From NCBI GenBank assembly GCA_012295275.1, contig CM022672.1, forward strand, positions 33,046,001 through 33,110,000: a stretch of DNA of 64,000 nucleotides, given 5' to 3'. Shown in pieces: positions 19,553 through 44,275 of the stretch (positions within the stretch are counted from its first letter, which is position 1; the number at the start of each line of letters is the position of its first letter). The notes beneath the pieces were generated by a model. That model saw only the letters and a list, made by a program, of their open reading frames with translations. It was not told the origin of the DNA and searched no databases. The position numbers and the translations under genes are program-made. Origin of the DNA: Chrysomallon squamiferum. Taxonomy: Eukaryota > Animalia > Mollusca.

Positions 19553-19594
<42 letters not shown>

Positions 19595-21317
19595 ATAATT
19601 ATTCATAGTAGTGTGTCAAAAAGGCCTCTATATTTTTTCTCCATCTCTAAATTTGGTCCTGATCGAGATTTCATTCAGTACAGAGGTTAATGCAGAGTTA
19701 GGTTGTGATTACAAATGTTGAATATGCGAATATAACATCTGATGCTTTTCATTTTTAATTCAAATTCAACCATACCTCATTAAACTCAACATAATTACCT
19801 GTCTAAATATTTCTTCTAGCAATTTCTTTAACATGTTAATTTTTCAAGAGTATCTTTTTATCTTTATTTTTTATTATTATTGTACATTTTATTTTTATTA
19901 TTTTATTTTTAATTACCTTTTTTTTCTAACTGATAACTAATTTTAAATAAATCTGCAATTCATAAATTGTCAAATTTCTTTTCTATCTTGTTTATCCAGT
20001 TTCAGGATTTTCCTGGAAAGAAAATACATCACCTTTACAAATGTTAATACATTCTGCACAGCAGTGGTAACTCTCTGATAACAGAACAGGGTTTTCACAA
20101 AATCAGTCACATTTCATTTTTAACTCGTACTTTAATAAACACAGCTGATATGAAAAACAAAACAAAACAAAGCAAAACAAACAATTTTTATTAATTAAAG
20201 CTGTTGCCAAAATAATAAATTTAAATAGGAAATAAATGTAATTTCATTTTGTTCTTTGTTTTTGTATGTGAAATTAAAGTTAAAATAAAACTGACTAGTG
20301 CTTTCCAAATTATCAATAAATTAGTTATTCAACTATTACAGTACATTATAATATATAACAGAAAAACTAAACAAAAATAATTATGTTCAAAATAATCAAA
20401 ATAATCCATGTACTGAATTCTGTAAGTAATAAAAAAAGAAGGTATTCATCTAAAACAAGAGTTCTGCACCAATTGTGCTCTTTCTCATTTCTCTGTCCCC
20501 ACAGTCAAGTCTACAAATCTGTATGTACATTATTGGATGTTACATTTCATGCTTAAATCCTGCTTTAATAAACATAGAAGACATGAAAAAAAAGAGTTTT
20601 ATTTTGTTTATTAAGTTATAATGACCTCCTGCCAAAATATTATTTGATTTTTGTGGTATTTTATTACATTAAATTTTTTTTTTAAAAAACACACAAAAAA
20701 TGAAATATGTAACAAAGATGGGAGATCTACAAGAAAATACAAGTTTATTAAATAAAAAGAGATAAATATGTTGATACAAAAAAATCAGTCCATTACATCG
20801 GAAAAGGAGAAAAGTGATCTGAAAGAGAAGCCAAAAAGAAACTAAGAACACTCTACACACATGTAAAAAACCTGGCATTGATGAAAACAGAATTATTGAG
20901 GAAAGTCATATTTTAAAACAAAGTTTAAAACACATGAAACAATTACTGACAGATGAAAACAACTAAATCAGAAAAAATACCTATACACCAGAGACAGTTT
21001 GTTGTGTAAAGAATCTGTTGGTACCAGTTTTTGACAGAACATTTAATTCGCTTTTTTTTAAAGATCCCTTCCGAAAAATTAATTTTTCATTAAAATAAAA
21101 AGCATTCAACTTATGAAACATATTCTATTGTGTATACAAAGAGCTTCCTATGTGGATCTAGTAAGAAACGACTGTAATCCACATTTCTTCAATTATTCTC
21201 TAGTTACAGTTTTACTGATATCACCCACTGACATAACAAGAATTGGAATAAATAACAAATAAATATATAGATTAATCTTCTGTTATAGGACGGTTGTATA
21301 CAGTTTATTTAAACAAG

Positions 21318-24276
21318 TCAGATAAATTTGGCTGTAACAAAAATAAAATTATTAAAACAAACATTTATATTGTTATAACTATCTCATTTTAATCTACAAT
21401 TTTATGATATATTTTTAGAAATATAAAATATCTCAAAACAGGGATGTTATATTCTGTTTCATTGTAAACTGAACTAAAATGTTTATCTGCTGGTATTTAA
21501 TCAAAAAAATCTTTATTTTTAGAGATGTTTGGCAATGCACTTCAGGATAATTTATTTGTATTATTTAATTATGTTAACAAGAATGTTCAATATTTAAAAC
21601 CAATTGAAGTTTGTAAAATTAAGGTTATGTTTTTAAATTTATACATTATTAAGTACCATTGCTTCTACATTATGTGAATTTTTTTGAATTTCTCCTTTGA
21701 TAAAACTAAGTTGATTAAGATTCAATAAATGATTCTATTTATATTGTTTTACGTTAATATTATTTCAGTTGACTGACTATATTTGTGTTTGCTTTTACCT
21801 TGCAGATATATAACAAATATGGCAAGAACAATAATCCAGTATGAACTAGATAACTTCACTTGACCAGCAACTAAAAAATACAATAAATAACAAAGCATCA
21901 AATTAAATTCACACATTCATATAAACTTAAAAAATTAACTAAAGAATTTCAGTGACAAAAATTTCAATAAAGTATGTTTCTAGCTGCTTTAAATGTAAAG
22001 GATATTATGTAGATAGAAAGATATACAAGTCGCACAAAACAGGCAAAATTGATTAGTAATCAATAACATTTTAACTGGGTATTAACTATCCTTATGCTGC
22101 CAATAACAGTAGTTAAAAACAGATACACACCATCCACATTCTTTGTTAAATTCTCTTGAGGTTTTTTGGTTGTATTCAGAGAAGTTATGTTCATTGACAG
22201 TTCCATGCAGTGAAATGTGTTTCCTGAAAATAAAATATTAAAATACAATAGGTCTTAATACGTTCAGCTGTCGTTTTAATATGATTACTGAGTTCACGTA
22301 CATTTATAATATTTATGATTTTTACTCTTCCAGTTGTTGTGTAAGAACTGAACAAACATGTTCCTTTCGGATCTCTTTGTTGACGCCACAGGGATCAGGG
22401 GTAGACTACTCTCGATGAACATACATGTATTCCAGTATAAACCGATGACTGGTGACCAGACTATTGTTGTTTTTAATTCCGTAACGTTTTACTCGTTGAT
22501 TATTCAATTTAACAGAGTTTTGGAAATTCATGACGTGAATCCAAACGGATTTGGATGTTGTATGTTTGAGCGAATCGGATTATGAGATTCGCGAATTTAT
22601 AGCCCTGAGTGATAAGGTACTGCTAAACAAAACCTTTTTATATAACAATGTTGAATGTAAGAGAGAGCCTATTTTAACAGTTTCACTTTCAGTTGTAACT
22701 AGGTATTAAATAATGACATTTACTGTGTATATGTTGTGCAAAGTTGTAATAGCTTTAGTAATTTCATCTTTAGCTGTAAATCATATTATTGCTTACCTTT
22801 AGCTACAGGCACTGAACCATCAGGACAGGTGCCAGTCCAGCTACAGTGATCTTCATATCCATTTCCTTCAACAAATTTGTAGCCTACTTCACAGGAACAC
22901 TCAGAATTCTTTGTCTTAGTACAGTTTGTTTTTAACTTTTGGAAAGGATCATTACATGGATTGCACGGCTCACAATAAGCTGCTTGATTGTAAACCTCTT
23001 GAAAAGTTCCAGATGGGCATTCTTCACATACAGAATTTTCATAATTTCCAACACAATCCTTACTTTTATATGTTCCTGGTGGGCATTTGCAGCAAACTCT
23101 TTCTGGTTGATGTGCTATGTAAATTTTTGAACATTTTTCACCCTGAAAATAAAAACAGAGATTATTTCAATACTTACTCTCAAAGGAACAAGATCAAACC
23201 TATACTATTCTGTAAATCAACAACTACTTTTGCATATGTCACTCAATCAATTATGTATGGGCACATGATTACAAGTGTTTATATATATATATATAATTAT
23301 TTATTTTAGCTGGGAATATATTTATAACTAAGATACTGATATAAAAATAGTTTAACAGCATAATAATAATAAAAAAAAAATTTCCTTTCACAATTTAGAC
23401 CTGAAATTCATTCTGTAGGAAGCTCAAAGCTGGTTTTTTATTTTTATTATTTTTGTTTTCCTAGATAAACTGGTTTAAATTAGAGAGGTTGTGTAGAGAT
23501 GGAAGAACTTGTGTACTTCTGCTTGTTAGGGTATATAAGCCTACTGCACTATAGTACTAGACACATGGCCAAAAAGAAAAAAAACTCCAATACACCACTT
23601 AAAATTAATATGAATTAAACGCATATAGAACTTAAAAACAACAAAGAAGAACAAAACTTAAATTCATCAAAGGCAAGAAAAAAAATGTCATTCATGAACC
23701 AAACAAAAGAAACTGAAATTTATATTAAATGAATATAGAACTTAAAAACCACAAATAAGAACAAAAGCTTAAACACATCAAATGCAACAACAAGAAAAAT
23801 ACATTACTCACTTGTTGACCATGCCATCAAAGAGAACATTTAAGAAGTCATAAAAATATGCATTCATGAAAGCAAAGAATTATAGTGAAAATTTGGAAAT
23901 TCCTAGATCTACCAGTTTATTTTAAAAGTGTTTTAAAATTGTTTATTTTAAACCTACTTTTTACAGACTTATAAATGACTTCATGCATGAAAAATGTTTA
24001 GATAATCACCACTATTCAAATCTGAAGATCTGGAAACAAAAATTAAGTTATTTAGTTCTATACAATGTCTGATACCAAAATTGAGCATATTCCAAATTTT
24101 AGAAACTAAACATTTTTTTTCAGTTTAATAATGGAATACAGTTATTATGTGTTCATTAATACTATATAATTTGAGTAAACAGGAAATGTAGAAAAAATAT
24201 TTATACTCACCAGATTTGGTTGAATCAGTATCATCAGTTCTGCGATTATAAAAACAACAGTCAGGTAGTTGTTCAT
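21318..24276 (-). CDS. TNF receptor superfamily-like protein, copy A (signal peptide + Cys-rich TNFR repeats + hydrophobic C-terminus; about 197 aa)
   Basis: Exons: 24276-24211 (MNNYLTVVFIIAELMILIQPNL), 23142-22797 (GEKCSKIYIAHQPERVCCKCPPGTYKSKDCVGNYENSVCEECPSGTFQEVYNQAAYCEPCNPC...NCTKTKNSECSCEVGY...), 22223-22131 (stalk, NTTKKPQENLTK), 21870-21799 (VAGQVKLSSSYWIIVLAIFVIYLQ), 21331-21318 (AKFI*; this last exon is less certain). Splice sites are canonical, phases match, and CCxCPPG...C...CxxCxxGT is the TNFR_c6 pattern. Confidence 0.88.
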
Positions 24277-25328
24277 ATTTCTCAAGGAAAAGTAACACAG
24301 GCTTGATTAATTAATGGTGAGAATAAATTCTGTGTAACAGAATTTTCTTAAATATTGGTTATTTCAAATTTTATGTTGATTATGTCAGTTAAAGTGTATT
24401 ACAGTAAACCTCAACTAAAATAAATCGTCTCCATATATCGTCACTGTCTTCACCATTTTATACGCGTTGCATTCTTACGTCACAGCCAATGAGGTCGTAA
24501 TCCACTTTTTAAGGTCAAATTGCATTGGTAACTCCGCCTACAAAAATGCACCTTTAACAATGTATATAATATGTATTTAACCTGTGTTTATGTTATGCGT
24601 AAAGCTATGATAATAGCGGGATTGAGGAATGGGCATTTACTTTTGTCAGTCGCCAGTAGAATGGGCCTGTGCTATGTTTTGCTACGGGCTCCGCTTTGCT
24701 TATGTAGAATATTAAAGGAAAAATAATAATATATAACTGATTTCATCTTCTCAATTGCGTGTTAGGCATCCAGTGCGAGGGCCAGGGGTCGCGGGTTCGG
24801 AGCTCGTAAACAGACATTGTTGGTTCTGTCAAAGGTCAGAGAGAGAGAGAGAGGGCCAGGGGTCGCGGTAAACGATTAGTCACCACAAACTGGTCGATCG
24901 TTCTATGAAATAAAAAAAACCCACCTAAAATCATTGGTTCATGCTACCAAAAGTAATAAATATGTATGTAAACAATGAGTTTCATATTTGAATCAAAATT
25001 AAAAAAAAAAAAATCATCGATTCATGCTACCAAAAGTAATAAATATTAAATAACCGAAAAGAATGTAATGCATCTTTTAAGATCAAGCTGCATTGATAAG
25101 TCAGCTTACAAACAGGTCCACACACTGACTGCAAAACGATTCTTGTATCTTTTTTCTTTCCTTTTTTTTTTTTGTGTGTGCGGTCTGAGTGAAAAAACAA
25201 CTGTTAAGAGTTTATAATTAAAGGAAATATTACTGGACTTTAATGAATTTTACGAACGCTGACTCTGGGAGATTTTTGTCAAATTCAGTAACATAGAGTC
25301 TCATATAGTCGGACACATATTTATTATG

Positions 25329-25362
<34 letters not shown>

Positions 25363-26169
25363 TTAAATTTTTTTATTATTCTAATTCATATTTAGTTAAT
25401 TTAGTAAGAACTATTTTAAAAAAGAAGTAAATAATAATTAGAAAAATTCAAAATATGATTTCAACAAGAACTTGCTAAAAATGTACCTTTAACAATGTAT
25501 ATAATATTGAAAAAAAAAAATAATAATAAAAAATATACTAAAACAAACAAACAAAAAGAAACCTGAAGTTTAGGAAACATTATCTTTTTCATTTATTACT
25601 ACAACTATTTTTTTTATTAAATTATGTTTTAACTTTATTTTCTCTTTATATGTGTCTTATATACGTTATTATGTACATGTGTTTGTGTGGGTGTCTGTCT
25701 GTGATTATATATACACAATACATCCATCCATCCATCCATACATATATCTCTCAAGTTGGCGTCACATTAGCCACAGGTGGGCAAACTTTATATTTAAAAC
25801 CAGGACGTCGAGAAATCTATTTTGTGATGCTCTATTGCAGGTGAACAATGAGCCACTTGTATCGAAACGTTAAGAGTTATTATTATGGGCTTTTTGTTTG
25901 CTTTGTTTAACCTGGAATCATGTTAAGAGAATCCTCCGATTCAACCGTATTAGCTACACAATTCCGTGTCAAATGCGACGAAGTGTATATTGATTAGTGT
26001 AACACAGACACAAAAAATAAAAGTGACAGGCTGAAAGATATTTTATATTCTCAGTGTGTATAACCTCTACGCTACAGTTAAGTGATAAAAAAATTAATAA
26101 TAATAAAATTATAAACTGTTTTCTAAACTGTCTGTGGAGAATCAGAAAATATTACCAGTTACATTAAAA

Positions 26170-26625
26170 AATATTAATTAATCTGTTATAAAATAGCAAG
26201 TATAATGAATTGTTCATACCTATTATTTTTTATTTTATCATTAATTATATCAACAACAAAAAAATCAATAAATCAATAATAAAAAAAATAATAAATAAAT
26301 AAACAGATTTACAGTTATCATGAATAGGTTGTTCATAATTTCAGTGCAGGTTTGAAAGTTAACCTAATAATAATATAATTAGGAAATAATTTTAATCTTG
26401 TTACCTGTTCATATAAATATATATATATTTAAATAGCCACCAAAAATGGTGTTAGGTAACACACACACACAAAAATAATAATAAAATTAAAAATTAAAAA
26501 AAAAGTAGGATTGTAAAAATGCATTGTTTACAAGCTTTTTTGAAGCAATTGGATTAATGTTTTAAATTTCATTTATTCAAAATGACGTTCACCAGTATCT
26601 GATTATTTAACAGGACTTCTGTAAA
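26170..26625 (+). repeat. Duplicated fragments of the RABL6 last intron and 3' flank, lacking the coding exon
   Basis: About 26200-26340 resembles the repeat at 16890-17115; about 26360-26625 resembles 17722-17980. Confidence 0.8.
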
Positions 26626-27040
26626 AGCGACCAGGTAGTCAGGTTTCTGAATGGGCGAGGCAAATTAAATGGTGTCGGCTACATTTTGTTTATTTCCTGG
26701 ATGCAGGTTTGTAAGTTCTGCATTGGTTATTTCAAATTTTATGTTGATTATGTCAGTTAAAGTGTACTACAGGAAACCTTGCCTAAAATAAATCGTCTGC
26801 ATACATCGGTCACTGTGACGTCCACTTAAACATCATCCTTGATTACTGAGGCATACAGGTAGCTGTGGAATTTTCCTCAGCACACAGTTTAGAAGGAGGC
26901 GTCACAGACTGGAAGGGGGCGCGCCTGCCAGATGCACATATTTTTTCAAGTATTACGAGGTAGCTAGCAAAAAAAAAAAAAAAAAACAAACAAGAAAAAA
27001 ATAATGTTCACAAACACCTGCGCGTGAATATATACCATAA

Positions 27041-27071
<31 letters not shown>

Positions 27072-27318
27072 GTGTGTGTGTGTCTGTGTGTGTTATTTAT
27101 TTCCATTTTCAATTCATTACAGGTCACTGTATATGTAAAAAGCAAATTAACCACGTGTTATTTGAATGATTTCCCTGGCTTAGTCCCATATATTGGAATC
27201 CTATTTCGTAGAAAGGCTAAATGTGGTTCAGTGGTCTTATTGACATGTTTGGTTTTACCTCAGTCATTTTAATGAACTGTTCCAGATTATTTGGAAAGCG
27301 ATTATTATTGTATAAATA

Positions 27319-27975
27319 CAGTAACATCTCGCTTAACGATACCACGCTTTAACAATCTTTCTTCTTTACAAATTATATAAATAGAAATTTAATTTAATAG
27401 TTAATTGCTCGAAATAAATGATACAAATGTATACAGTGCATGTTTTTAAGTCCTTTTTCTTTAATTTTTCGTTCATTCACGAGCTTCTCTCAGTTGTGTT
27501 GATCAGTTGACACGTCATATGTGCATCTGATATTCTGATTCTCTTTTGTCTTCTTCTTCGATTTAGACTTAAACTTGTTTTGAATTTACCCCTCCAATAT
27601 GTCAAAACGAATAACAGTATACCGGCAAATGCTGATGATAAAAGAAACGGAAGATAATAACTTTAGAAACAAAATAAATTATCTTGAATGAAACCAAAAC
27701 CCACAATGAGCGGCATATACTTATTTCTTAGTGTATTTGTATAAATTGATTTATAAATGATTTACTGTTTATTTAATATCTACAATCTATTAAATCATTT
27801 ATGTCTAAACTGCCGTTTTATTTCTCCTTATTTCACCTTTTTTTTTTTATGTCAGATCTCATCAGCGAGAAAGTAACCACTGCTTTTAACCTTAATTCTA
27901 TGTAAATTAGTCTCCCGCTTACCTCACTTAATTATTGGATGTTTTGGAACCAATTATTGTAGTATGGATATTGCT
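27319..27975 (+). mobile_element. Degenerate Tigger/pogo-like DNA transposon remnant
   Basis: Starts TA|CAGTAACATCTCGCTTAACGA, a pogo-like terminus. About 27640-27690 translates as KKRKIITLETK*IILN, resembling the CENP-B/psq HTH start of pogo transposases. The right end is poorly defined. Confidence 0.55.
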
Positions 27976-28007
27976 TATCGCATAAAGTATCAAGAATTAT
28001 CAAGAAG

Positions 28008-28059
<52 letters not shown>

Positions 28060-28508
28060 CAGACGGCATATGTTGTTTATTAAGAAGTTAGACAACACAC
28101 CAAAGATGGGGTAAATGTATAGAATGTTCGTTGTTTTACCGATTAAAAACAAATCTTCTTTGTCTAGTTTCCTAACTGTGGAGTCGGTTCCTTTCTCAAT
28201 CCAGAACATTGCTGGAGGCAGAATTTTCATTCATGGATGAAAGAAAATAATAGGCATTAGTAGAGATGCATCAAATGGTTCTGTTCACTGAACTGTTGAG
28301 GAGGAAGGTCAAAACAGAAAGCATACATAATACAGAATTCTTACAGGGTAGGTTTTAGATTTCTGTTGAAATCTGAGGTCAACATGACAATCAATTAGTA
28401 TCAATATGATACTACAGTATCAATGTGACCATTCTGACAGGTTTTAATATCTACCTGTATCAGTATTTACATGTGTGTCTGTGTGTATCTATATTTATAC
28501 GTGTCTGA

Positions 28509-28553
<45 letters not shown>

Positions 28554-28714
28554 TGATGATTTATTTTCTTTATCCTTTTTCCTTATTTTTATTTGAAACC
28601 ATCATTCAGCGACATTTTAAACTAATTTGTTTTCTTTTTCTTTTCTTTTCTAAAAAAAAATAAATAAAATTGTCATAAATTATCGTGAGATCCATAGTCA
28701 AACATATAAAAAAA

Positions 28715-28905
28715 CAAAGATGTTTTTTGATTAAATACTTGGCAGCAGATAAGCATTTTAGTTCATTTTACAATGAAACAGAATATAAAAACACCTGTTT
28801 GGGGGATATTTTATGTTTGAAAAAATATATCATAAAACTGTAGTTTAAAATGTAGATTGTTATAAATGTTTGTTTTAATAATTTTATTTTGTTTCAGGTT
28901 CGTAA
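28715..28905 (+). pseudogene. Orphan fragment of the TNFR-like gene (last intron + terminal acceptor gtttcag|GTTCGTAA)
   Basis: Colinear with 40672-40865 of copy B. Confidence 0.75.
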
Positions 28906-29233
28906 CAACCAACAAAACAAAAAATAATCCATGTATAACTAACTGCATTATAGATTTCGATCGGAAGTGTCCGTGAGCGCTCGGAAACCATCTGATTGAG
29001 TTTTTAATCTTCAATAATAATAATGATGATGATGATGATGATGATGATGATACAAGATTAAATAAAGTTATTTTATAAATGAATATGAATAAGTTACGCA
29101 GTTTGGGGGAAAATATGTAATACATTATAAATATTTTTATAATAAAATAATAATTAAAAAAAGGTCGTGAAGTTAACAGGGACGATCGTGTACATAAAAT
29201 AAGAAAAATATCTTGCCAATATAGCGTTCATTA

Positions 29234-29286
<53 letters not shown>

Positions 29287-31224
29287 TTTTATGACACTGA
29301 TTAAAGGTTAATATCAAAGCAATGCAGAGAAGAAAATGCCATCGAGTCTAACGTTAAATTTTGAAAAGGAAATAAATTTAACTTCATTTTATTCTTTGGG
29401 GTTTTTTATGTCAAATTTTTCTATATCTGCATCATATCCAAGCTATTCTCACCCACTGTTTAGAGATAATAGCCTATATTAAGCATATAATAATATAAAT
29501 TTACTGTGCGTATGAAAATACACATGCTTCATTTTTATAACATTTTTAATATTTTTACTTGACGATGGTCCATATATAAATATGTTACCCCTCTTGGACA
29601 GTAAAATATACGTTTTCATCATTCAGTGCTACAGCGAATCTCGAATATAAATATGAATGAAACTGTGACGTCACTGAACATTAAATGCGTACATTCCATT
29701 CCTTTCTTTGGTTTCCGTCATCTATGAATGAACACTGTGCCTCGCTGTGCTGTAGTTGAGCTTTTTTTTATCTTTGGGCATGTGTCTAGTGCTGTAGTGC
29801 AGTAGGCTAATATACCCTAACAAGCAGAAGCACACAAGTTCTTCCATCTCTACACAACCTCTCTAATTTAAACCAGTTTATCTAGGAAAACAAAAATAAT
29901 AAAAATAAAAAGCCAGCCTTGTGCTTCCTACAGAATGAATTTCAGGTGTAAATTGTGAAAGGAAATGTTTTATTTTTTATTATGCTGTTAAAATTTGTTT
30001 ATATCAGTATCTGCATTTCCTTTTAGTTATAACTCTATTCCCAACTAATAATAATAAAGGATTATGTTCAGTCAAACACAGACATTATGATACACTACAC
30101 AATACTTTTAATAATCCATGTATAACTAACTGCATTATAGATTTCGATCGGAAGTGTCCGTGAGCGCTCGGAAACCATCTGATAGAATTTTTAATCTTCA
30201 ATATTCCTACTATTTTTCTGAATTTTTTATGATTTACACTAATAAAGGTACGAAGGATGATTGTTCATATTACCAAACCAACCCTTTCCTAACTATTTTT
30301 TCCACTTAATAAAACTTTTCAAACTTTATTAATTTTGTGTAAATGCGTGCATAATAAACTGAAATTGTAATAATAATTTGTTATGAGTTGTTATTAACTT
30401 TTCTAATTGGCAGTGTTACCCGTGTCAGAAACCATTATAAAGAGAGGGAAAAACAAATCAAAAACATGAATAGGTTTACCCAAATATCTCAAATGACTCC
30501 AAACCAATGTGATTACTATTTCTATTCACAGCGAAAATGCAACATCACTTAATTTTTTTCGTGCACGGAATGCAGATGACGTTAGACTCGGTGGAGTTAT
30601 CTTCTCTTCGTTGCTTTGATATTAACATTTAATCAGTGTCATAATAATAATAATAATAATAATAATAATGTAATGAACGCTATATTGGCAAGATATTTTT
30701 CTTATTTTATGTACACGATCGTCCCTGTTAACTTCACGACCATTTTTTTAATTATTATTTTATTATAAAAATATTTATAATGTATTACATATTTTCCCCA
30801 AAATTGCATAACTTATTCATATTCATTTATAAAATAACTTTATTTAATCTTATACTATCATCATCATCATTATTTTTATTATCATTAATCATTCTTCTTC
30901 TTTTGGTGTATTTGTTTCGTGTGTGTATATGTGTGTGTGTTTTTGAAGATTTGCCTTTTAATTTTCAAAAAATATTTCTTTGGAATATGATTAGTATATT
31001 AAAACTACTGTAAAATTTATATTCATAATTATTTTGGTTTAGTTTTCTTTTACCTTTAGTTTCACATACAAATCAAAGAACAAAAAGAGATTATATTTAT
31101 TTCCTTTTTAGCATTTAACAATATATCTGTACAGGTGAAATTAAAATTAATAATTTTGGCATCAACTTTAATTAATAAACAAAATAAAACTATATATATA
31201 TATTTTTTGTTTTGGTTTTATATA

Positions 31225-31256
<32 letters not shown>

Positions 31257-32467
31257 CAGCTATGTTTGTTAACTGATTTTGTAACTGATTTTGTGAAAAC
31301 CCTGTTCTGTTATCAGAGAGTTTCACTGCTGTGCAGAATGTATTAAAGTTTGTTAAGAGGATGTATTTTCTTTCAAGGAAAACCCTGAAACTGGATGAGC
31401 AAGATAGAAAAGAAATTTGACAATTTATGAATTGGCGATTTTATATAAATTCATTATCAGCTATAAAAATATATTTGAAAAGTAAAAGCACAAAAAATAT
31501 AACTAAAAATGTAGATTATAATAATAATGATAAATAAATAAAAATAGTTATAAAAAAAGTTAATTGTCCACGTTTATAGAATTATAATAGCAACAAAACT
31601 TTACTATTGTTATTTCCTAACATTGAAAATTGTTGTAAAAAGAATTTCCTGAGAAAATGAATGTGAGGAAGAGATTGCTGTAGTTGCTAAAGCAAAAGAC
31701 AAGTGCATGACATTTAGATATATATATATATATACACACGGAAACACACACTAACACACAGTAACACAGAAACACTAGCAGAGAAACATACACACACACA
31801 CTCATACAGTAACACACACAAGCATGTGCTCACACCAAAACAAAAATGTTTGCAATAAATTATGTTTATTTATTATTATTATTATAAACAAAATATTTCA
31901 AAAGAAAATCATATTTTATTTTAATGCCTTGTAAAAATAATAAATAAAAGTCACTTTTGTTCCTTTTTTTTATAGCTTTTAAGTAAAATAATAAAACAAC
32001 AATTCTTAATTTTCGAAACAATTTTAAACTTTGAATTCATTACAAGGAATATTTTTATCAGAATATTTTTTTGTCATGCAAAAACTAAATATTTACCAAT
32101 AATTCTTTTCCATCAACTTTTTAAAAACTTTAATTTTCAATAAAATTTAAAAATCAACACTTCTGATTGCTCAAAATTATTTTTAAAATGTTGTATTCTT
32201 TCCAAAGCATAGAAGTGGACTAAACTTGACCTGGATCTCTCGGAAAATATTTAAAAATAAAACGTTATTCATTTAAAATTTTATATTTCTTTAACATGCT
32301 TATTTTTCAACAATATATTTTATTTTCTGTATAATTAAAGTTGTTGCCAAAATAATTAATTTTAATTATTTTTATTTAATTTCATCTGTGCAGATTTATG
32401 GTTAAATTTTAAAAAGTTTAATTTAATTTTATTCTGGGTTTTTCATATGTAAAATTAAAGGTAAAAA

Positions 32468-32513
<46 letters not shown>

Positions 32514-33204
32514 ATGTTATTGGTATTATTGTTATTATTATTATTGTTATTGTTATTATTTTATTTTATTATTATTATTATTATTATTATTATAGATTCA
32601 GCTGATGGCTTTGATATTTATATATTTGTATGATACTGATTAAAGATTAATAAAACGAAGAGAAGATAACTCCATCGAGTCTAACGTAATCTGCCTTCCG
32701 TACACGACAAAAAACACGTGATGTTGCATTTTCGCTGTGAATAGAAATAATAATCACGCTGTTTTGGGGTCATTTGAGATATTTGGGTAAACGTATTCAT
32801 GTTGTTGATTTGTATTTTCCTCCCTGTATAATGGAAAAAATAATAACAAATCTTAAAACAAATTATAATTTCACTTTTATTTTTCAACCATTTACTCAAA
32901 AATAATAAAGTTTGAAAAGTTTGATTAAGTGGAAAAAGTAGTTAGGAAAGGTGTGGTACATCATTGTTTGGAAATATGGACAACCATCCTTAGTACCTTT
33001 ATTAGTGTAAATCGTCAATATGTTGTTGTTTTTGAAAATTGACGTAAAATTACCATGCATTCCTTCATAATGCAATCAGTTCTGCATGGTTTATTAAAAG
33101 TGATTCGGGGAATATATCAGTGCTTTGTTATTTGTTTTTCGTTAGTTTACATAAACATGTCAGATAAAACGCTATCATTTTGTTACATCCAGCTGAAGAA
33201 TATT

Positions 33205-33581
33205 TTCTTTTTTAGCTGCTGGTCAAGTGAAGTTATCTAGTTCATACTGGATTATTTTTCATGCCATATTTGTTATATATCTGCAAGGTAAAAGCAAACA
33301 CAAATATAGTCAGTCAACTGAAATAATATTAACATAAAACAATATAAATAGAATCATTTATCATACTATTTATTGAATCTTAATCAACTTAGTTTTATCA
33401 AAGGAGAAATTCAAAAAAATTCACATAATGTAGAAGCAATGGTACTTAATAATTTATAAATTTAAAAACATAACCTTAATTTTACAAACTTCAATTGGTT
33501 TTAAATATTGAACATTCTTGTTAACATAATTAAATAATACAAATAAATTATCCTGAAGTGCATTGCCAAACATCTCTAAAA
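33205..33581 (+). pseudogene. Orphan copy of TNFR-like exon 4 (33216-33287) plus downstream intron
   Basis: A 72-bp exon with intact AG/GT encoding AGQVKLSSSYWIIFHAIFVIYLQ. Nearly identical to 40310-40670; no upstream Cys-rich exon is present. Confidence 0.85.
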
Positions 33582-33598
33582 ACAAACATCTCTCTGTA

Positions 33599-33945
33599 CA
33601 GTGCAGGATTAACAACGTAGCAGACGTAGCAATTACTTTTTTTTTATTTTTTTTTTTTTTAAATCAAAATGTTGGGAGCTGCTCATGTACCGTCTGATCA
33701 GAGATCACAACACGCAGTCATGTTTACCTGATACTGAAATAATGCTACGCATGTATTTGTGTATGATGGTTATAAACTGCACGGGGAACGGTTCGTGTTT
33801 CAAACTGCGCCGCATACGCAACGAAAGACGATGGGAGGAAAACGTTTAAATATGCTGACGTTGATGAACATCGAATGTGACGTTTCAGAACGACTGACAC
33901 TACTTCCATCAGGGTGTCAGGTGTGCTTTCTTGTTTATCGCTGAT
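33599..33945 (+). mobile_element. hAT transposon remnant (terminus-like start + fragment of the dimerisation domain)
   Basis: Starts CAGTGCAGGATTAAC...GTAGCA. ORF 33759-33944 contains RKTMGGKRLNMLTLMNIECD, matching the hATC motif RSTMxxxRLxxLxLxxIExD. Confidence 0.65.
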
Positions 33946-34719
33946 TACAGTGTCGATGGTTTGGTCAAATCAGAAAGCATGCATAAGGCAGAATACTTAC
34001 AGTAGGTTTAACGTGATATCTGTTGGAATCGTAGGTCAGCATGACCATCAATAATTAGTCATTGATACTTAGTCAGTGTCAATGTGACCATTCTGACTGG
34101 TTTTAATATCTACCTGTATCAGTATTTACATGTGTGTCTGTGTTTATCTACATTTATACGTGAATGTGTGTGTGTGTGTGTGTGTGTGTGATGATTTATT
34201 TTCTTTATCCTTTTTCCTTATTTTTATTTGAAACCATCATTCAGCAACATTTTAAACTAATTTGTTTTCTTTTTCTTTTCTTTTAAAAAAAAAAAAAAAA
34301 TTGTCGTAATTGTCTGTTTGGGGAATATTTTATTTTTAAAAAAAAAAATATATCATAAAACTGTAGTTTAAAATGCAGGAGGAGGTCACATAACTTAATT
34401 ATTAAACAAAATAAAAGCTTTTTTTTTTTTTTTTTTTCATGTCAGCTATGTTTATTAAAGTAGGATTTAAGCATAAAATGCAAAATCCTGATTTGTTGAC
34501 TTGATTGTGGGGATAGAGAAATGAGAAAGAGCACAATTGGTGCAAAATTCTTGTTTCAGATGAATATCTTCTTTTCTAATTACTTACAGAATAATACACA
34601 ACATTCAGTACATGGATTATTTTGATATTTGTAATATTTGCAAACGTTATGCGATAAGGGACATCCATAACCTCTATACAATACTAATCGGTTTCCAAAT
34701 AATGTGGAACCGTTCATTA

Positions 34720-35640
34720 TAATGACTGAGGTAGCAACATGCACGTCAATTAAGACGACCACTGTTCTTAGCAGTTCGACTAGCAGTTCGACTAGTTCGT
34801 AAGCCACGCCCTTTCTGTTTTATGGGTCACAAGTTAATGTCCAAAATGGCGGAATCTGTAGCTCTAAAAAGTATTCCAGATAATGTGTCGGTTTCATATC
34901 TTCATCAGAGCTTGGGCCTTTCCAGAAAAGCACAAGAGAAAGGCTTAAAGTATTTTAGGCAAGGCTACATCCACGATATAAAAATGTCCGACGAAAATCA
35001 ACCGAAAGTTAGATTCTGGCGTGCCATGACGAAATACGACTCGGCGCACAAACTGAAACTGCGTAGTCACGTTTGCTTGGAGACGAAACAACTATCAGAA
35101 GCCAACTGCGCCCGTAAAACTGGATGAATAAGTATATTTTGATATTATACTCATATTGCAGCATGGTTTATTTTAGTGCAAAAAAAAGAAAAAAAAAAGA
35201 GAAAAGTAACGAACTTGAATACAACAAATTGACACACGAGTCTTAAAGCTGCATTGTCAAGGCCATTTGTAATAGTTGAACATTTACAAAAGATCGCCCA
35301 CATTATGTTTGAATTCATCTCACAACCAGTTTTGGTATATGCATCACACACACAGTCACACAGCTTTTGGGGTGTTTTTTTAATTCTCCGTTGGGCCATT
35401 TCTTGTTCCAACCAGAGAATCATGACTGGACATAGTAGGATATTGCGTCTAATTCCACAGCGGTTTTGATTGGATAATATTTCGTCTCAAAAGAAAAAGG
35501 AACAGCTTCCGTTATAAGTTAATCGCGAGAATCAGCGAGATTCAGTTATAATCGGACAATAAAAGGCGCTTCCGTTATAAGTTAATCGGAGAACAGCGAG
35601 ATTCAGTATAGTATATATATATAATATAGCCTGCCAGAAA
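34720..35640 (+). mobile_element. Transposon remnant with truncated ORF resembling the SWIM-finger N-terminus of ISL2EU/Harbinger-associated YqaJ proteins
   Basis: GC-richer island. ORF 34822-35127 reads EKGLKYFRQGYIHDIK...WRAMTK..AHKL...EANCARKTG (decayed AxCxCKAG). Homology to 41415-41450 breaks at about 34720, and about 40-bp direct repeats occur at 35506 and 35568. The family call is from memory of motifs only. Confidence 0.5.
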
Positions 35641-35776
35641 GTGCTTTACTACAGCTCGCTCATTTCATTTCATTTCAACATAAAGATTGAAATAACCAAG
35701 ATTTAAGAAAATTCTGTAACAGAATTTATTTTGTTCTATTAACTGTTCAAAATTGTGAAAATTTTTATTCAGAAAT

Positions 35777-38700
35777 ATGAAAAACCAGACTACTCTGCCT
35801 GTAATTGCTTTTATCATTCTGATGGGATCAGTGATCCGACCAGTCTTGGTGAGTATAAATATATATATTTTTTTTTTACATTTCCTATTTACTCAAATTA
35901 TACAGAATTAATAAACATATTATAGTAACTGTATTCCATTATTTAGGTATGTGGATTTAGTGTTCAGTTCTCCCGCCTGCTTTCGATTGAAACACAGTGA
36001 ACAATTCTAGCCGCTGTAATATTTTAACATTTCCCCCTCTATCTTTGTTAATAATCAAGCTTTCTTGATGAAATTTTCAGTGAAGACCAATGCCAATCTC
36101 TGCTATCGATTATATTTGTAAAAATTAGAAAGAAGTTATTAATTAAGGTACCAGCAGCCTAACAAACATAAGTGGAAAAAGTGCCGATTTTGTCCATTTC
36201 CCGCCCATCCCAAATCCCTTCTGTAAAATTTAACATCAAAAACAATTACACTCAAATACAGATTAATATGCGCTCTTTTAAATGGTGATGTTGTTTTTGT
36301 TATGTGTTAAATCAGTAGTTTGTATAAGAGTGTTAAACGTGGTGGGGGTAAGCGAAATTTGTGAACATCCCTAAAGCTAAAGCGGTGTCGCTCTACGAAG
36401 CGCTCATCTGAAGGCGGAGTCGCTTTTCTTAACTATTTTTAGCACCCAAGAAAAGAACGTCATAGTTCGATATTTCTAACATCGTTAGAATTATTTATTA
36501 TTTCTAATATCGTCGCTATTAATACCAATGGCGTGTAAATTTATAACAAAAGTTATGTCCACAAATGTATATTGCTTGCCTAAAAATAAATTTAAAAAAA
36601 TAAATTAAGAAAGAAAGAAAAAAAGAGTAACAAACATATAAAAGAACCTCTGCTATTTAAAATGATAGAAGCTATGTTTATATTTTTAGTAATTTTGGGG
36701 ATGCATAGTTTTCTCCTGTGTTCGGATTTCTAAAGTATATACATTATAATATGAATGCGATCGTGTTTTGCTTTAAAAATTCTTGCGATAAATGGTGAAT
36801 TAAAAATCATAAACATAACAAACTGTACTACAAAACAGTACAATGAATGTATTCTGTGAATCTAAGTACCAGAGGTATTCGTAGAATATTAAATACGAAA
36901 CGTACAACTTTTTTTTTTTTTTAATCGTGAAACCATAAACTGATAAATCATAAAGTGTTCAGTTTTAAAACTTAGGTTATTTTTGCTTCAAGTGTTGATT
37001 TGCTCCATCAGAGAAAACATCAGCAGATGGTCACATGATACATTGATAGGTATCTTTTGTTTGCTGTCAAATCACCAGGAAGTACAAACACAAAGCCAAG
37101 AAAATTATTTTGTCTGCTTCAAATGACAGTTACAATACCTGTGTCTTTAATTGTCATGATTACATACACAATGTATTGCTCCTAATAAAGACCGGCAACA
37201 CCTTTCTGGAGTCGATTCCAAGGATTATACGAGTTTATGTATTGCAGAGGATTATAGTTAACATCAAATGCTAGTAATCGGTAAAACAATATTAATTCGT
37301 TTATTTCAGAACGAATACATATTATATTTAGTAAAAGTCACAACATCCAATAAAACATGCATCCTACAAGCTATTAAAAATATAATCAACATAATTTTGA
37401 AGAAAAAAAAACAGAAACTCAAACTGGCGATATAACGCCAACAAACCATATTTCACGAGGTAAAAATTACAATTAAGAGCCTCGAAGCTGCTTGATAAAA
37501 TTTCAAAGACAATAAGATAATAAAACTAATTATTATGTCCAGCTTCTTTTCATTCGTGTCACATAACCGGTTTTAGTTATTGTAGCATGTTGAAAATTCC
37601 GTAAAAGTTTCAAGATGGCGATCGAACACCAAAATGACCAAAACCAAAATACCATATTTCACGAGGCAATCATAACAATTGAATGCGACCATAACTTTTG
37701 ATAAAATTTTAAAGACAATAAGATAAAAAACCAAAGTTAATGTCTACTTACCTTTCGTTCGTGTCCGTAGCTGGTTTTAGTGGTTCAAGTGTGTTGAAAA
37801 TTCATAATTTTCTAAAAAGCAGTGTAGGCACAGAAAAAAACGGAATCAAAATATTCGAAATCGTGAGCACTTATCAATATCCTGTCTGTGTTTTTATGCA
37901 GAAATCCCAAGTAAAGAATATAACACGAGTCAAGAAAAGCGAACAAACGGCGCCCCCCCAGTGCGAAACACGATTTCTGTGGAACAGCTAATTGGTAAGA
38001 AACGGCAGCCGCTAATTGCGAGTATCTGCACATACCTACTTTATTAAACTTAAAAACATTTTTCCTTTATAAAATTTGGAATATCACCAAAAATGCTCAT
38101 TTTTGGTATCACACATTGTATATAAATAAATCACTTCATTTTTGTTTCCAGATCTTCAGATATGAATAGTGGTAATTATTTCAACATTTTTCATGCATGC
38201 AGTTATTTATAAATAAGTCTGTAAAAAGCTGTAAACTGAACGATTATTTTTCCTAACTTTGATGGCATGAGTAAAAAGTAAATAATTTGCTACTTCTCAT
38301 TTTCCTGTCTTGATAAAATCAGTTTCTTTTGTTTGGGTTCATGGTTTTGTATTTTTTCTTGCTGTTGTTGCGTTTGATGTATTTTAGTTTTTGTTCTTGT
38401 TAGTTGTTTTTAAGTTTTATATGCATTTAAATTCAGCTTCTTTTGTTTGGTTCATGCATGGTTCTAGTTTTTTTTTTTTTTTTTTTTTTGCGTTTTATGT
38501 ATTTAAGTTTTTCTTTTTGTTATTTTTAGGATCAGTATGCATTTAATTCATATTAATTTTAAGTGGTGTAGTGGGTTTTTTCTCCTTCTGCTGCTATAGT
38601 GCAGTAGATGTGTCTGTTGCTATAGTGCAGTAGGCTTATATACCATAACAAGCAGAACCACACAAGATCCACTAGTTCATACATATCCTCTCTAATTTTT

Positions 38701-40865
38701 AAACCAGTTTATCTACCAAAACAAAAAACAAAAATAAAAAAGCCCTGTAAATTGTGAAAGGAAAATTTTTATTATGCTGTTAAACTTTTTTTATATCAGT
38801 ATCTGCATTTCCTTGTAGTTATAAATATATTCGCAGCTAATTTAAGGAATTATAGTCAATCAAAACCAAACATATAAAATATCTACAATGTTTAATTATG
38901 TGCCTCTGCACTTTTGATTGACTGATGTATGTAAAAGTAGTTGATTTACAGAATAGTAAAGGATTGATCTTGTTACTTTGACAGTAGGTTTTGAAATCAT
39001 TTCTGCTTTTATTTTCAGACTGAAAAATGTCAATATACTTACATATCACATGAACCAGAAAGAGTTTGCTGCAAATGTCCACCAGGAACATATAAAAGTA
39101 AGGACTGTGTTGGAAATTATGAAAATGCTGTCTGTGAAGAGTGTCCACCTGGAACTTATCAAGAGGTTTACAATCAAGCAGCTTATTGTGAGAAGTGTAA
39201 CCTGTGTAATGATCATTTCCAAATGTTGAAAACAAACTGTACTAAGACAAAGAATTCTGAGTGTTCCTGTGAAGCAGGCTACAAACCTGTTGAAGGAAAT
39301 GGATATGAAGATCACTGTAGCTGGACTGGCACCTGTCCTGATGGTTCAGTGCCTAAAGCGAAAGGTAAGCTATAATACAGTTTACAGCTAAAGATGAAAT
39401 TACTAAAGCTATTACAACTTTGTACAACATATAAACAGTAAATGTCATTATTTAATACCTAGTTACAACTGAAAGTGAAACTGTTAAAGTAGCTCTCTCT
39501 TGCATTCAACATTGTTATATAAAAAGGTTTTGTTTAGCAATACCTTATCACTCAGGGATATAAATTCACGAATCTCAGAATCCATTTCCATCAAACATAA
39601 AACATCCAAATCCGTTTGGATTCACGTCATGAATTTCCAAAACTCTGTTAAATTGAATAATCAACGAGTAAAATGTTACGGAATTAAAAACAACTGGTTT
39701 AAAAAGTGTAGCATATATTCGAATCCACGTATGTTCGAAACATCGTGGTTTATCGAGAGTAGTCTACCCTTGGTCCTTGTGGTGTCAACAAAGAGATCCG
39801 AAAGGAACATGTTTGTTCAGTTCTTACATAACAACTGGAATAGTAAAAATCATAAACACTATAAATGTACGTGAACTCATTAATCAGATTAAAACGACAC
39901 CTGAACATATTAAGACCTATTGTATTTTAATATTTTATTTTCAGAAGGCACAAACAAATTTCACTGCATGGAACTGTCAATGAACACAACTTCTCTGAAT
40001 ACAACCAAAAAACCTCAAGAGAATTTAACAAAGAATGTGGATGGTGTGTATCTGTTTTTAACTACATGTTAACATGCTACTGTTATTGGCAGCACAAGGA
40101 TAGTTAATACCCAATTAAAATGTTATTGATTACTAATCTATTTTGCCTGTTTTGTGGAACTTGTATATCTTTCTATCTACATAATATCCTTTACATTTAA
40201 AGAAGATAGAAACATACTTTATTGAAATTTTTGTCACTGAAATTCTTTAGTTAATTTTTTAAGTTTATGTGAATGTGTGAATTTAATTGTTATTTATTAT
40301 ATTTTTTAGCTGCTGGTCAAGTGAAGTTATCTAGTTCATACTGGATTATTGTTCTTGCCATATTTGTTATGTACCTGCAAGGTAAAAGCAAACACAAATA
40401 TAGTCAGTCAACTGAAATAATATTAACATAAAACAATATAAATAGAATCATTTATCATATTTATTGAATCTTAATCAACTTAGTTTTATCAAAGGAGAAA
40501 TTCAAAAAAATTTACATAATGTAGAAGCAATGGTACCTAATGTATAAATTTAAAAACATAACCTTAATTTTACAAACTTCAATTGGTTTTAAATATTGAA
40601 CATTCTTGTTAACATAATTAAATAATACAAATAAATTATCCTGAAGTGCATTGCCAAACATCTCTAAAAATAAAGATTTTTTTGATTAAATACCAGCAGA
40701 TAAGCATTTTAGTTCATTTTACAATGAAACAGAATATAACATACACCTGTTTTGGGATATTTTATATTTGAGAAAATATATCATACAATTGTAGATTAAA
40801 ATGCAGATAGTTAAAACAATATAAATGTTTGTTTTAATAATTTTATTTTTGTTTCAGGTTGGTAA
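35777..40865 (+). CDS. TNF receptor superfamily-like protein, copy B (about 199 aa)
   Basis: Exons: 35777-35848 (MKNQTTLPVIAFIILMGSVIRPVL), 39019-39364 (TEKCQYTYISHEPERVCCKCPPGTYKSKDCVGNYENAVCEECPPGTYQEVYNQAAYCEKCNLC...), 39945-40043, 40310-40381 (AAGQVKLSSSYWIIVLAIFVMYLQ), 40858-40865 (GW*; this last exon is less certain). The frame is open and splice sites are canonical. Confidence 0.88.
35944..38038. mobile_element. Non-autonomous DNA transposon, about 2.1 kb, in intron 1 of TNFR copy B (possibly hAT)
   Basis: 10-bp TIR TAGGTATGTG...CACATACCTA. Flanks cattatt / ctttatt form an imperfect TSD. The paralogous site in copy A (about 24120-24140) is empty. An internal direct repeat of about 206 bp starts at 37445 and 37651. 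No transposase ORF. Confidence 0.85.
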
Positions 40866-43752: not shown

Positions 43753-44053
43753 CAGATTTCGAAGCCTTAATTATGAACATAATTAATTTTTTTTTAATAA
43801 TAATTGATATTTTAAATTTTCAAAGAAAAACACTATTTTATTTAAAGAGTTCTATCTACATATTAATCATTAATATAAACTGTTTATTATAATTGAATAA
43901 TTTAGCTTCTATTTATACATTATTTTTTATATCTATATTTGTAATCTGAGTTAAGGTAATAACCTATTTTTTAAAATTTATTTTTTTCAGAGAAAAACTG
44001 ATTTTGACAGTAAATCTAATGACGCAGTAATATTTCCATGTGCAAGCTCAAAT

Positions 44054-44275
44054 CTATTTGCTACACAACTCAGTTGCTTTTGTTGTTGATACGTCATCAT
44101 CAACCACAGCATCAGCATTGTTCACATCATCATCGTCGTCGTCGTCATCATCATCATAATCCTGCACATTTTCTGGATACATGACGTTCTTGTTGTCTTC
44201 CGTCCATGCAGGATGCAATTTGGTGTCGTCCACAGTAGACTGGTTTCTCACAGTGTTAGGCTGTATTGTGTCAAC
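44054..44275 (-). CDS. PBX: Candidate distal alternative terminal exon of PBX (acidic tail, 73 aa)
   Basis: Acceptor ttttattacag|GTTGAC; phase-0 open frame VDTIQPNTVRNQSTVDDTKLHPAWTED...poly-Asp...CSK*. It is an isolated island of coding-like composition on the PBX strand. Linkage to PBX is inferred. Confidence 0.55.
   Translation of the reverse strand, partial: VDTIQPNTVRNQSTVDDTKLHPAWTEDNKNVMYPENVQDYDDDDDDDDDDVNNADAVVDDDVSTTKATELCSK

What the first reader, a model, noticed from the sequence alone, without database searches (positions are those of the whole stretch)
21318..40865. Hidden inverted pair of TNF-receptor-like genes that look like GPI-anchored decoy receptors
Seen: two intact 5-exon genes absent from the ORF track. 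Each encodes a signal peptide, roughly 2-3 TNFR Cys-rich domains, a stalk with N-glycosylation sequons (NIT/NTT, NLT), then small residues (D-A/V-A-G), a polar spacer (QVKLSSS), a 13-residue hydrophobic run (YWIIVLAIFVxYL) and a stop within a few residues. Established: small-residue omega site + spacer + terminal hydrophobic run is the GPI-attachment signal, and GPI-anchored TNFRs without a tail (human DcR1/TNFRSF10C, mouse Tnfrsf23) act as ligand decoys. Inference: an independently evolved invertebrate decoy-receptor system that buffers TNF signalling.
Basis: partly seen in the sequence, partly recalled or inferred. Interest (0 to 1): 0.85.

Follow-up and report, generated by a model that had tools for sequence, protein, structure and literature searches.

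The report
Tailless TNF-receptor decoy genes in gastropods
Two back-to-back duplicate genes, likely from a snail, encode TNF-receptor proteins whose gene models end without an inside-the-cell signalling tail; they are predicted to hang on the cell surface by a lipid (GPI) anchor and likely soak up TNF signals, as some mammalian decoy receptors do.

Summary
Two head-to-head genes with five coding exons (A, minus, 196 aa; B, plus, 198 aa; 157/200 identical) have open frames, GT-AG introns, a TNFR Cys-rich fold and a C-terminus with the layout of a GPI signal. For B, RNA contigs show the exon 3-4 junction in 3 of 3 RNA runs (one study) and exon 2-3 in one. Exon 4-5 and the stop are supported only indirectly; A's junctions are untested.

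New here: the design is not a one-off truncation. The closest named relatives are four short, tailless Gigantopelta aegis (gastropod) proteins. One shares the C-terminal segment by sequence (scores 43/42; best of 82 controls 34). The terminal hydrophobic run is weaker than 81 of 82 transmembrane helices of tailed relatives, which favours GPI.

No GPI predictor, ligand binding or decoy action was tested. 14 of 82 artificially cut transmembrane receptors also pass my omega-site rule, and an alternative acceptor could give a short-tailed form. Ten literature searches showed no mollusc GPI-type TNFR. Verdict: new variant of a known kind; 'GPI-anchored TNF decoy' about 0.45.

The parts
24211..24276 (-). 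Gene A exon 1: start codon and predicted signal peptide
   Evidence: ATG, hydrophobic core, GTGAGT donor, phase 0. Not tested on reads.
22797..23142 (-). Gene A exon 2: TNFR Cys-rich domains (15 Cys)
   Evidence: Pfam TNFR_c6 33.9 bits; 314/346 nt identical to B exon 2. A-type letters seen in one RNA library, X1.
22131..22223 (-). Gene A exon 3: last Cys and stalk with three N-glycosylation sequons
   Evidence: 90/93 nt identical to B.
21799..21870 (-). Gene A exon 4: small residues, polar spacer, 13-residue hydrophobic run (predicted GPI signal)
   Evidence: omega candidate D168, 28 residues from the end.
21318..21331 (-). Gene A exon 5, coding part and stop
   Evidence: Relative to B it lacks about 100 bases at the start of exon 5, so the last residues differ (blocks).
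35777..35848 (+). Gene B exon 1: start codon and predicted signal peptide
   Evidence: covered by RNA contigs in X2 and X3. The junction to exon 2 is indirect only.
39019..39364 (+). Gene B exon 2: TNFR Cys-rich domains (15 Cys)
   Evidence: Pfam 30.9 bits; best PDB sequence hit HVEM, E 2.9e-11; model pLDDT 89.5; Foldseek HVEM, TNFR1, DcR3.
39945..40043 (+). Gene B exon 3: stalk with sequons
   Evidence: Exon 2-3 join in X2 (table 5c); exon 3-4 GT..AG joint in X1, X2, X3 and not in X5.
40310..40381 (+). Gene B exon 4: predicted GPI signal
   Evidence: joint; omega candidates D172 and A173, 26 and 25 residues from the end.
40858..40865 (+). Gene B exon 5, coding part and stop; the 3' untranslated part is covered by RNA contigs to about 41290
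   Evidence: contig lengths in X1 and X3 fit this acceptor; longest stop-free frame in the next 535 bases is 91 codons.
40945..41003 (+). Possible alternative exon-5 start in B that would give a 19-residue tail with two lysines after the hydrophobic run
   Evidence: Pyrimidine tract plus AG ending at 40944; use not shown and not excluded.
33201..33589 (+). Remnant third copy: exon 4 (33216-33287) and part of intron 4; one Leu-to-His change in the hydrophobic run; no exon 1-3
   Evidence: 94-96% identical to A and B; no other copy of exons 1-3 in the window.
28675..28927 (+). Remnant copy of the intron 4 end and exon 5 acceptor
   Evidence: 83% identical to both A and B.
35944..38038 (.). 2.1-kb insertion in B intron 1, absent from A, with 12-base terminal inverted repeats (11/12); likely a non-autonomous DNA transposon
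   Evidence: longest frame 89 codons; summed depth up to about 5,700 in X5 against about 50 in exon 2.

Best explanation
These are two intact, duplicated TNF-receptor-family genes, likely of a gastropod, whose gene models encode no cytoplasmic tail; the products are predicted to be GPI-anchored and likely act as surface decoys for the animal's TNF-type cytokines. Steps: (1) shown: open five-exon frames, TNFR fold, spliced RNA for B exons 2-4. (2) Inferred from sequence: the signal peptide takes the protein into the ER; the transamidase cuts at the Asp or Ala at the exon 3-4 boundary, drops the last 25-28 residues and adds GPI, leaving about 2.5 Cys-rich domains on a short glycosylated stalk. 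(3) Inferred by analogy with human DcR1: with nothing inside the cell it cannot recruit TRAF or death-domain adaptors, so bound TNF trimer is sequestered and signalling through full-length TNFRs is damped. (4) Inferred history: the tailless design predates the split from Gigantopelta aegis; the pair arose by a local inverted duplication, with further copies now decayed. My odds: real tailless genes 0.9, GPI given that 0.75, TNF decoy given GPI about 0.65.
For: Gene models. Exon 3-4 joint in 3 of 3 RNA runs and 0 of 1 DNA-like run; exon 2-3 join in X2. X1 record 6 leaves 75 letters unlaid, equal to 45 of exon 5 plus a 30-letter overlap; X3's joint has 2 extra matching letters, as expected if exon 5 begins at 40858. 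The published GPI-signal layout (omega+2 mostly G/A/S, spacer omega+3 to +9, hydrophobic from about omega+10; bioRxiv 10.1101/838680, passages) is met by both. Best 19-residue hydropathy is 1.94 and 1.80 against a median of 2.92 for 82 transmembrane helices of tailed relatives, only 1 of 82 as low; 57 of 82 have two or more K/R after the helix, whereas A has one and B none. A and B differ in their last residues, as expected for a discarded propeptide. The top hit and three more G. aegis proteins (P0001, P0004, P0019, P0180) are short, start with a hydrophobic leader and end in a hydrophobic run; all list a contig of 46,388,186 bases. The last 28 residues align to P0001's end with scores 43 and 42, above all 82 controls (best 34). 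Exon 2 dN/dS is 0.59 overall and 0.04 in codons 16-42. DcR1 is GPI-anchored and inhibits by ligand scavenging (PMC5876652, PMC10445540, passages).
Against: No trained GPI predictor was available; my rule is home-made, and 14 of 82 transmembrane receptors cut just after the helix also pass it. Only 5 of 8 tailless homologs tested pass it; P0180, P0076 and P0058 fail. B has 20 uncharged residues at its end, enough for a weak membrane anchor. The exon 4-5 joint and the stop codon were not displayed (43 joints were hidden). X1 and X2 contigs end exactly at the end of exon 4, which implies a branch with at least one continuation that I could not read. All RNA comes from one study and from contigs. 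A's junctions are untested. The G. aegis proteins are automatic gene models, and terminal hydrophobic ends can come from incomplete models: P0107 is labelled partial and has a 425-aa cluster mate. No ligand was identified. Even for DcR1 the review read notes possible functions beyond decoy. Only 4 C-terminal alignments to G. aegis were scored, and for P0004, P0019 and P0180 2 to 7 of 82 controls score as high.
Confidence: 0.45

Rival explanations
1. The proteins are GPI-anchored but are not sinks. They act as co-receptors or presenters that concentrate TNF for a signalling receptor, trigger reverse signalling through membrane-bound TNF, or bind a non-TNF partner such as a microbial or viral surface protein.
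For: Sequence cannot tell a sink from a presenter. GPI-linked co-receptors exist (GFR with RET; PMC13351906 passage). The closest solved relatives include HVEM and ELR1, which are in the PDB with non-TNF partners or as virus receptors. The first 15 codons of exon 2 differ between A and B by 9 replacement and 0 silent changes, and the RNA contigs carry mixed A/B letters, a hint of diversification.
Against: 9 to 0 is not significant (about 0.11 under neutrality, from 35.2 and 9.8 sites). The Cys-rich core is conserved. The characterised tailless TNFRs that I read about are described as decoys.
Confidence: 0.27
2. The hydrophobic end is kept as a short transmembrane anchor, or fails as a GPI signal and the protein is secreted. 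The product is still a non-signalling binder, but not GPI-linked.
For: 19-residue hydropathy of 1.8-1.9 is above a commonly used transmembrane threshold of 1.6 (recalled). Retention of intron 4 would give a 16-residue basic tail in A, B and the remnant; the acceptor ending at 40944 would give a 19-residue tail with two lysines.
Against: Hydropathy is below 81 of 82 true helices, and there is no basic cluster after it in the main models. Intron 4 has RNA depth 0-0.8 in the bin 40414-40647 against 6.6-14.6 in the bin holding exon 4 (contig depth is a poor measure).
Confidence: 0.16
3. The tailless models are incomplete or minor: exon 4 is mainly spliced to further exons that encode a signalling tail, or the genes are decaying truncations of a signalling receptor.
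For: The branch at the end of exon 4 in X1 and X2 is unread. Decayed copies lie between the genes. Exon 4 has the position of a transmembrane exon.
Against: X3 and X1 contig lengths fit exon 5 at 40858. RNA covers the region after the stop. No frame over 91 codons follows it. B is followed within about 3 kb by a minus-strand exon-like segment and then a PBX-type gene; A faces the end of a RABL6-like gene. Frames are intact, and tailless relatives exist in G. aegis.
Confidence: 0.12

Closest known systems
Human DcR1 / TRAIL-R3 / TNFRSF10C
   Same: TNFR Cys-rich ectodomain, stalk, no intracellular domain; GPI-anchored and inhibits by ligand scavenging (PMC10445540, PMC5876652, passages).
   Different: Binds TRAIL and has five TAPE repeats in its stalk. 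The window proteins have a short N-glycosylated stalk, no tested ligand and only a predicted anchor. It was not among the 36 PDB sequence hits, and orthology was not tested.
Mouse mDcTRAIL-R1 (Tnfrsf23) and R2 (Tnfrsf22)
   Same: Decoys without a death domain that differ substantially in sequence from the human decoys, a precedent for repeated origin. That Tnfrsf23 is GPI-linked and that the genes are tandem duplicates is recalled, not seen in the passages.
   Different: Mammalian and TRAIL-binding. An ESM Atlas cluster named 'TNR26 factor (Fragment)' scored 0.89, a lead only.
Gigantopelta aegis predicted TNFR-like proteins XP_041377191.1 (P0001), XP_041377439.1 (P0004), XP_041378419.1 (P0019) and P0180
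   Same: 182-237 aa, hydrophobic leader, Cys-rich domains, terminal hydrophobic run, 0 to about 5 residues after it. P0001 is the best hit (41% identity, E 2.9e-18) and shares the C-terminal segment.
   Different: Only automatic names (6-, 6B-, 11B-, 21-like); no GPI or decoy wording in the names returned. P0180 fails my omega rule. A single clade is not rejected (p-AU 0.578) but not shown.
Soluble decoys DcR3 (TNFRSF6B) and OPG (TNFRSF11B); HVEM and TNFR1 ectodomains
   Same: Best sequence and fold matches of the Cys-rich part (TM-score up to 0.80).
   Different: OPG is soluble (DcR3 recalled), and HVEM and TNFR1 signal through tails (recalled). Identity is about 23-33%, too low to infer the ligand.

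Membership tests
TNF receptor superfamily | TNFR Cys-rich domain (Pfam PF00020) above the curated cut-off | tested here: met
   33.9 and 30.9 bits against 29.4.
TNF receptor superfamily | Elongated Cys-rich-domain fold | tested here: met
   pLDDT 89.5; all listed Foldseek hits are TNFR-family ectodomains (B exon 2 only).
TNF receptor superfamily | Binds a TNF-family ligand | not testable with these tools
   No ligand gene was found in the window and no genome is held.
GPI-anchored proteins | N-terminal signal peptide | tested here: inconclusive
   Hydrophobic leaders of 22-24 residues in exon 1; no SignalP run.
GPI-anchored proteins | Small omega and omega+2 residues, polar spacer, terminal hydrophobic run, no tail | tested here: met
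   against the layout; home-made rule that 14 of 82 cut transmembrane controls also pass.
GPI-anchored proteins | Covalent GPI, released by PI-PLC | not testable with these tools
   Bench test.
GPI-linked decoy TNFRs (DcR1 type) | Mature transcript encodes no intracellular signalling domain | tested here: inconclusive
   B: contig lengths fit the short exon 5 in X1 and X3, but the joint was not displayed and a branch at the end of exon 4 is unread. A: not examined.
GPI-linked decoy TNFRs (DcR1 type) | Inhibits signalling of a paired receptor by taking its ligand | not testable with these tools
   Bench test.
TNFRSF10C or Tnfrsf22/23 orthologues | Groups with the mammalian decoys in a tree | not tested
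   No row known to be a mammalian decoy was in the trees. The window proteins fell on the side holding the named mollusc and hemichordate rows (94/92).
Death-domain or TRAF-binding signalling TNFRs | Full transmembrane helix followed by a cytoplasmic domain | tested here: not met
   3-5 residues after the core in the models; hydropathy below 81 of 82 helices.

The most novel reading that the evidence does not exclude
Molluscs carry their own old subfamily of GPI-anchored TNF decoy receptors, evolved independently of the mammalian ones and overlooked because surveys filter for a transmembrane helix. It is present in at least two gastropods, perhaps also in the bivalve Dreissena, and turns over by local duplication, with sequence exchange between inverted copies that reshuffles the ligand-facing domains.
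Probability: 0.35. Interest if true: 0.7.

Novelty: new variant of a known kind. Interest (0 to 1): 0.5.

Why it matters
GPI-linked decoy TNF receptors are described from mammals. A mollusc version would show that the same way of damping TNF signals arose again in a lineage without adaptive immunity. It gives concrete candidates for a question that a review of invertebrate TNFRs lists as open: what TNFRs without death domains do (PMC4979521, passage). It also exposes a blind spot: two surveys required a transmembrane segment when calling receptors (bioRxiv 10.1101/2024.07.27.603686 and 10.1101/2021.12.26.474206, passages), and neither main text contains 'GPI' or 'decoy'. The idea is cheap to test. 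It is a convergent variant of a known design, not a new mechanism.

Tried and rejected
Genome-wide search for paralogs and ligands: no genome is held.

Word-index homolog searches with B exon 2 found nothing at near lengths or longer lengths (24 candidates, none significant). The profile search added P0180 and otherwise returned mostly fish proteins (20 hits among 4873 candidates).

ESM Atlas gave only generic TNFR clusters, best score 0.90.

The fold of P0004 from a 6-row alignment was poor (pLDDT 53) and was not used.

NF-kB-like sites (recalled consensus, 1 mismatch): 36 found against 25.5 expected, 5 of 100 shuffles as high, no perfect site near either start. Not used as evidence.

Positive selection: not supported (dN/dS 0.59; the 9:0 patch is not significant).

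Sister relation to P0001: 89/91, unstarred, in the 66-row tree, but support 0 in the 39-row quick tree. The clade test that added Dreissena P0110 did not finish.

A hidden cytoplasmic frame after the stops: none over 91 codons.

A complete third gene between the copies: rejected, since exons 1-3 have no other copy in the window.

The DARS2-like frame, one RABL6-like exon, the last PBX-like exon and the 34735-35127 frame gave no Pfam match (4 of 7 queries), so the DARS2 and RABL6 names rest on recall.

No complex was predicted, because no ligand of this species was at hand.

Three look-ups of earlier findings returned nothing.
Full report
Setting. The window is an AT-rich eukaryotic sequence (19-34% GC per 2 kb), and no whole genome is held for it. 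The finding lies between a plus-strand gene with a Ras-family exon (weak Pfam match; RABL6-like by recall) and a minus-strand PBX/extradenticle-type gene (PBC and homeodomain matches). The organism was not identified. The closest named relatives of the proteins are from the gastropod Gigantopelta aegis, so a gastropod is likely.

Observation. Self-comparison shows an inverted block, 21332-24131 against 40857-38041 at 84%, with further inverted pieces around exon 1 and after exon 5. Splicing by coordinates gives two open five-exon models, A (minus, 196 aa) and B (plus, 198 aa), with start codons 11.5 kb apart and pointing away from each other. They share phases 0,1,1,1, have GT..AG at all eight introns, and are identical at 157 of 200 columns. 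Exon 2 passes Pfam TNFR_c6 in both. B exon 2 matches 36 PDB sequences, led by HVEM at E 2.9e-11, folds with pLDDT 89.5 from a 49-row alignment, and superposes on HVEM, TNFR1 and DcR3 ectodomains. Sixteen cysteines fit about two and a half domains, which is my reading.

Expression. Five runs hold part of B: four RNA runs of one study and one unlabelled run of another. Four of the five were laid on 35500-42500. The exon 3-4 joint (GT..AG) appears in 3 of 3 RNA runs and not in X5, which covers introns and behaves like DNA. X2 joins exon 2 to exon 3, in a form 6 bases shorter than the window's. Exon 1-2 is indirect: an X1 contig stops at the last base before exon 2, and an X3 contig leaves 52 letters unlaid there.

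Exon 4-5. This joint was not among the rows shown (43 were hidden), but three numbers fit the acceptor at 40858. X1 record 6 leaves 75 letters unlaid, equal to 45 of exon 5 plus a 30-letter overlap. X3's joint extends two letters past exon 4, as it would into an exon that starts GT. X3 record 23, of the same depth, leaves 290 letters, enough for exons 3, 4 and part of 2. Against this, the X1 and X2 contigs end exactly at the end of exon 4, implying a branch whose other arm begins with a different letter. That fits A's exon 5, the alternative acceptor ending at 40944 (19-residue tail), or an unseen exon. Gene A was not examined on reads; A-type letters occur in exon 2 in X1. All of this is contig evidence from one study.

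The C-terminus. The published layout of a GPI signal is a polar linker, the omega residue, omega+2 mostly G, A or S, a spacer to about omega+9, and a hydrophobic stretch from about omega+10 (bioRxiv 10.1101/838680, passages). A (D168) and B (D172 or A173) fit it, 25-28 residues from the end. To separate GPI from a cut-off transmembrane helix I used 82 tailed relatives, picked from 168 hits by a 19-residue hydropathy of at least 1.6 and a tail of at least 25 residues. Their median is 2.92, and only 1 of 82 is as low as A (1.94) or B (1.80). 57 of 82 have two or more basic residues after the helix; A has one and B none. The rule is not specific enough to decide: 14 of 82 of those receptors pass when cut after the helix. 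The hydropathy scale and the rule's residue sets are recalled, and no trained predictor was available.

Relatives. The exhaustive search gave 320 proteins at E up to 0.001 and listed 150. Nine of the 150 end in a hydrophobic run by my rule, 74 have helix plus tail, and 67 are other or fragmentary. Three of the nine are G. aegis (ranks 1, 4 and 19). The others are Dreissena P0110, a hemichordate, a scallop, a partial bird model and two unnamed. A profile search added G. aegis P0180, also nearly tailless. All four G. aegis entries list a contig of the same length.

Shared C-terminal segment. The window's last 28 residues align to P0001's end better than to any of 82 transmembrane regions (43 and 42 against at most 34). 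For P0004, P0019 and P0180, 2 to 7 controls score as high, and for P0110, P0076, P0058 and P0149 there is no signal. Five of eight tailless homologs pass the omega rule. Trees of the Cys-rich part are weak: window plus P0001 has 89/91 in one tree (66 rows) and 0 in another (39 rows). Holding the window pair, the four G. aegis proteins and the fragment P0024 together is not rejected (p-AU 0.578). Rows over 620 aa or matching under 65 positions were left out of the trees. So an old gastropod subfamily is likely but not proven, and the G. aegis entries are automatic models.

History of the pair. Identity rises from the 5' end to the 3' end: exon 1 83%, intron 1 85%, exon 2 91%, intron 2 93%, exons 3-4 and introns 3-4 96-97%. 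X2's main contig carries three A-type letters in an otherwise B-type exon 2. Both suggest sequence exchange between the inverted copies, but alleles or further paralogs could explain the second. A third exon 4, an exon-5 acceptor and flanking pieces lie between the genes without exons 1-3. B's intron 1 carries a 2.1-kb high-copy insertion with terminal inverted repeats. Exon 2 dN/dS is 0.59.

Mechanism. Shown: TNFR ectodomain, open frames, spliced B exons 2-4. Inferred: ER entry, cleavage at the exon 3-4 boundary, GPI addition and surface display. With no inner part the protein cannot recruit adaptors, so a bound TNF trimer would be withheld from signalling receptors, as described for DcR1 (PMC5876652 and PMC10445540, passages). 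I put this whole chain at 0.45. The rivals are a GPI-linked co-receptor or binder of another partner (0.27), a short membrane anchor or secretion (0.16), and incomplete or decaying models (0.12). Gastropods do have the pathway: 4 TNF and 15 TNFR-like genes are listed for Aplysia (PMC9334734, passages). In oyster, five TNFRs without a death domain respond to Vibrio (PMC4346834, passages).

Novelty. Ten searches of the held library showed no paper title or abstract start on a GPI-type TNFR in a mollusc or other invertebrate; the search for TNFR, mollusc, GPI and decoy receptor together returned 0. I saw listings only for most, and passages for 11 papers. 'GPI' occurs 0 times in the three invertebrate TNFR papers and the two mollusc immunome papers checked for it. 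Most subscription journals, where much shellfish immunology appears, are not held, and I read no supplements; the gene tables of the two bioRxiv surveys could bear on this. One of them notes that only 9 of 15 receptor-like proteins in a coral set have a C-terminal transmembrane region, so invertebrate TNFR-like proteins without one are known in outline. That mouse Tnfrsf23 is GPI-linked is recalled; the passages confirm only that it is a decoy unlike the human ones in sequence.

Verdict. A real feature: members of the TNFR superfamily that probably work like DcR1, with membership of the GPI-decoy class unproven. New variant of a known kind, interest 0.5.

Noticed in passing
window 2828-3318 (-): Exon-like frame resembling mitochondrial aspartyl-tRNA synthetase (DARS2), by recall; no Pfam match on this piece.
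   Followed up: partly
window about 5600-15800 (+): Multi-exon RABL6-like gene (name recalled) with an acidic low-complexity C-terminal part; one exon matches Pfam Ras weakly.
   Followed up: partly
window about 51300-61940 (-): PBX/extradenticle-type homeobox gene: PBC and homeodomain exons confirmed; the 3' exons were not mapped.
   Followed up: partly
window about 44007-44277 (-): Acceptor followed by an Asp-rich stretch that looks like a last exon; possibly an alternative end of the PBX-type gene (read by eye).
   Followed up: no
window 34735-35127 (+): 130-codon frame about 650 bases upstream of gene B's start, in a more GC-rich patch; looks like a mobile-element remnant by recall, no Pfam match.
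   Followed up: partly
window about 39475-39920 (+) and its inverted match in A intron 2: High-copy repeat in intron 2; one X5 contig skips it (446 bases), so a haplotype or paralog without the insertion exists.
   Followed up: no
window 40951-40977 (+): X3's main transcript has letters here that differ from B and partly resemble A's exon 5; a further allele or paralog is possible.
   Followed up: no
window 18487-20630 against 31041-32252, 34380-34630 and 41574-41838: Older (70-82%) inverted copies of the 3' flank, pointing to several rounds of duplication at this locus.
   Followed up: no
window 12042-13313: Tandem array with units of about 67-114 bases in an intron of the RABL6-like gene.
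   Followed up: no
P0110 and P0201 (Dreissena polymorpha): A near-identical pair of 201-aa TNFR-like models that also end in a GPI-like segment; the models lack a leader peptide and may be incomplete.
   Followed up: partly
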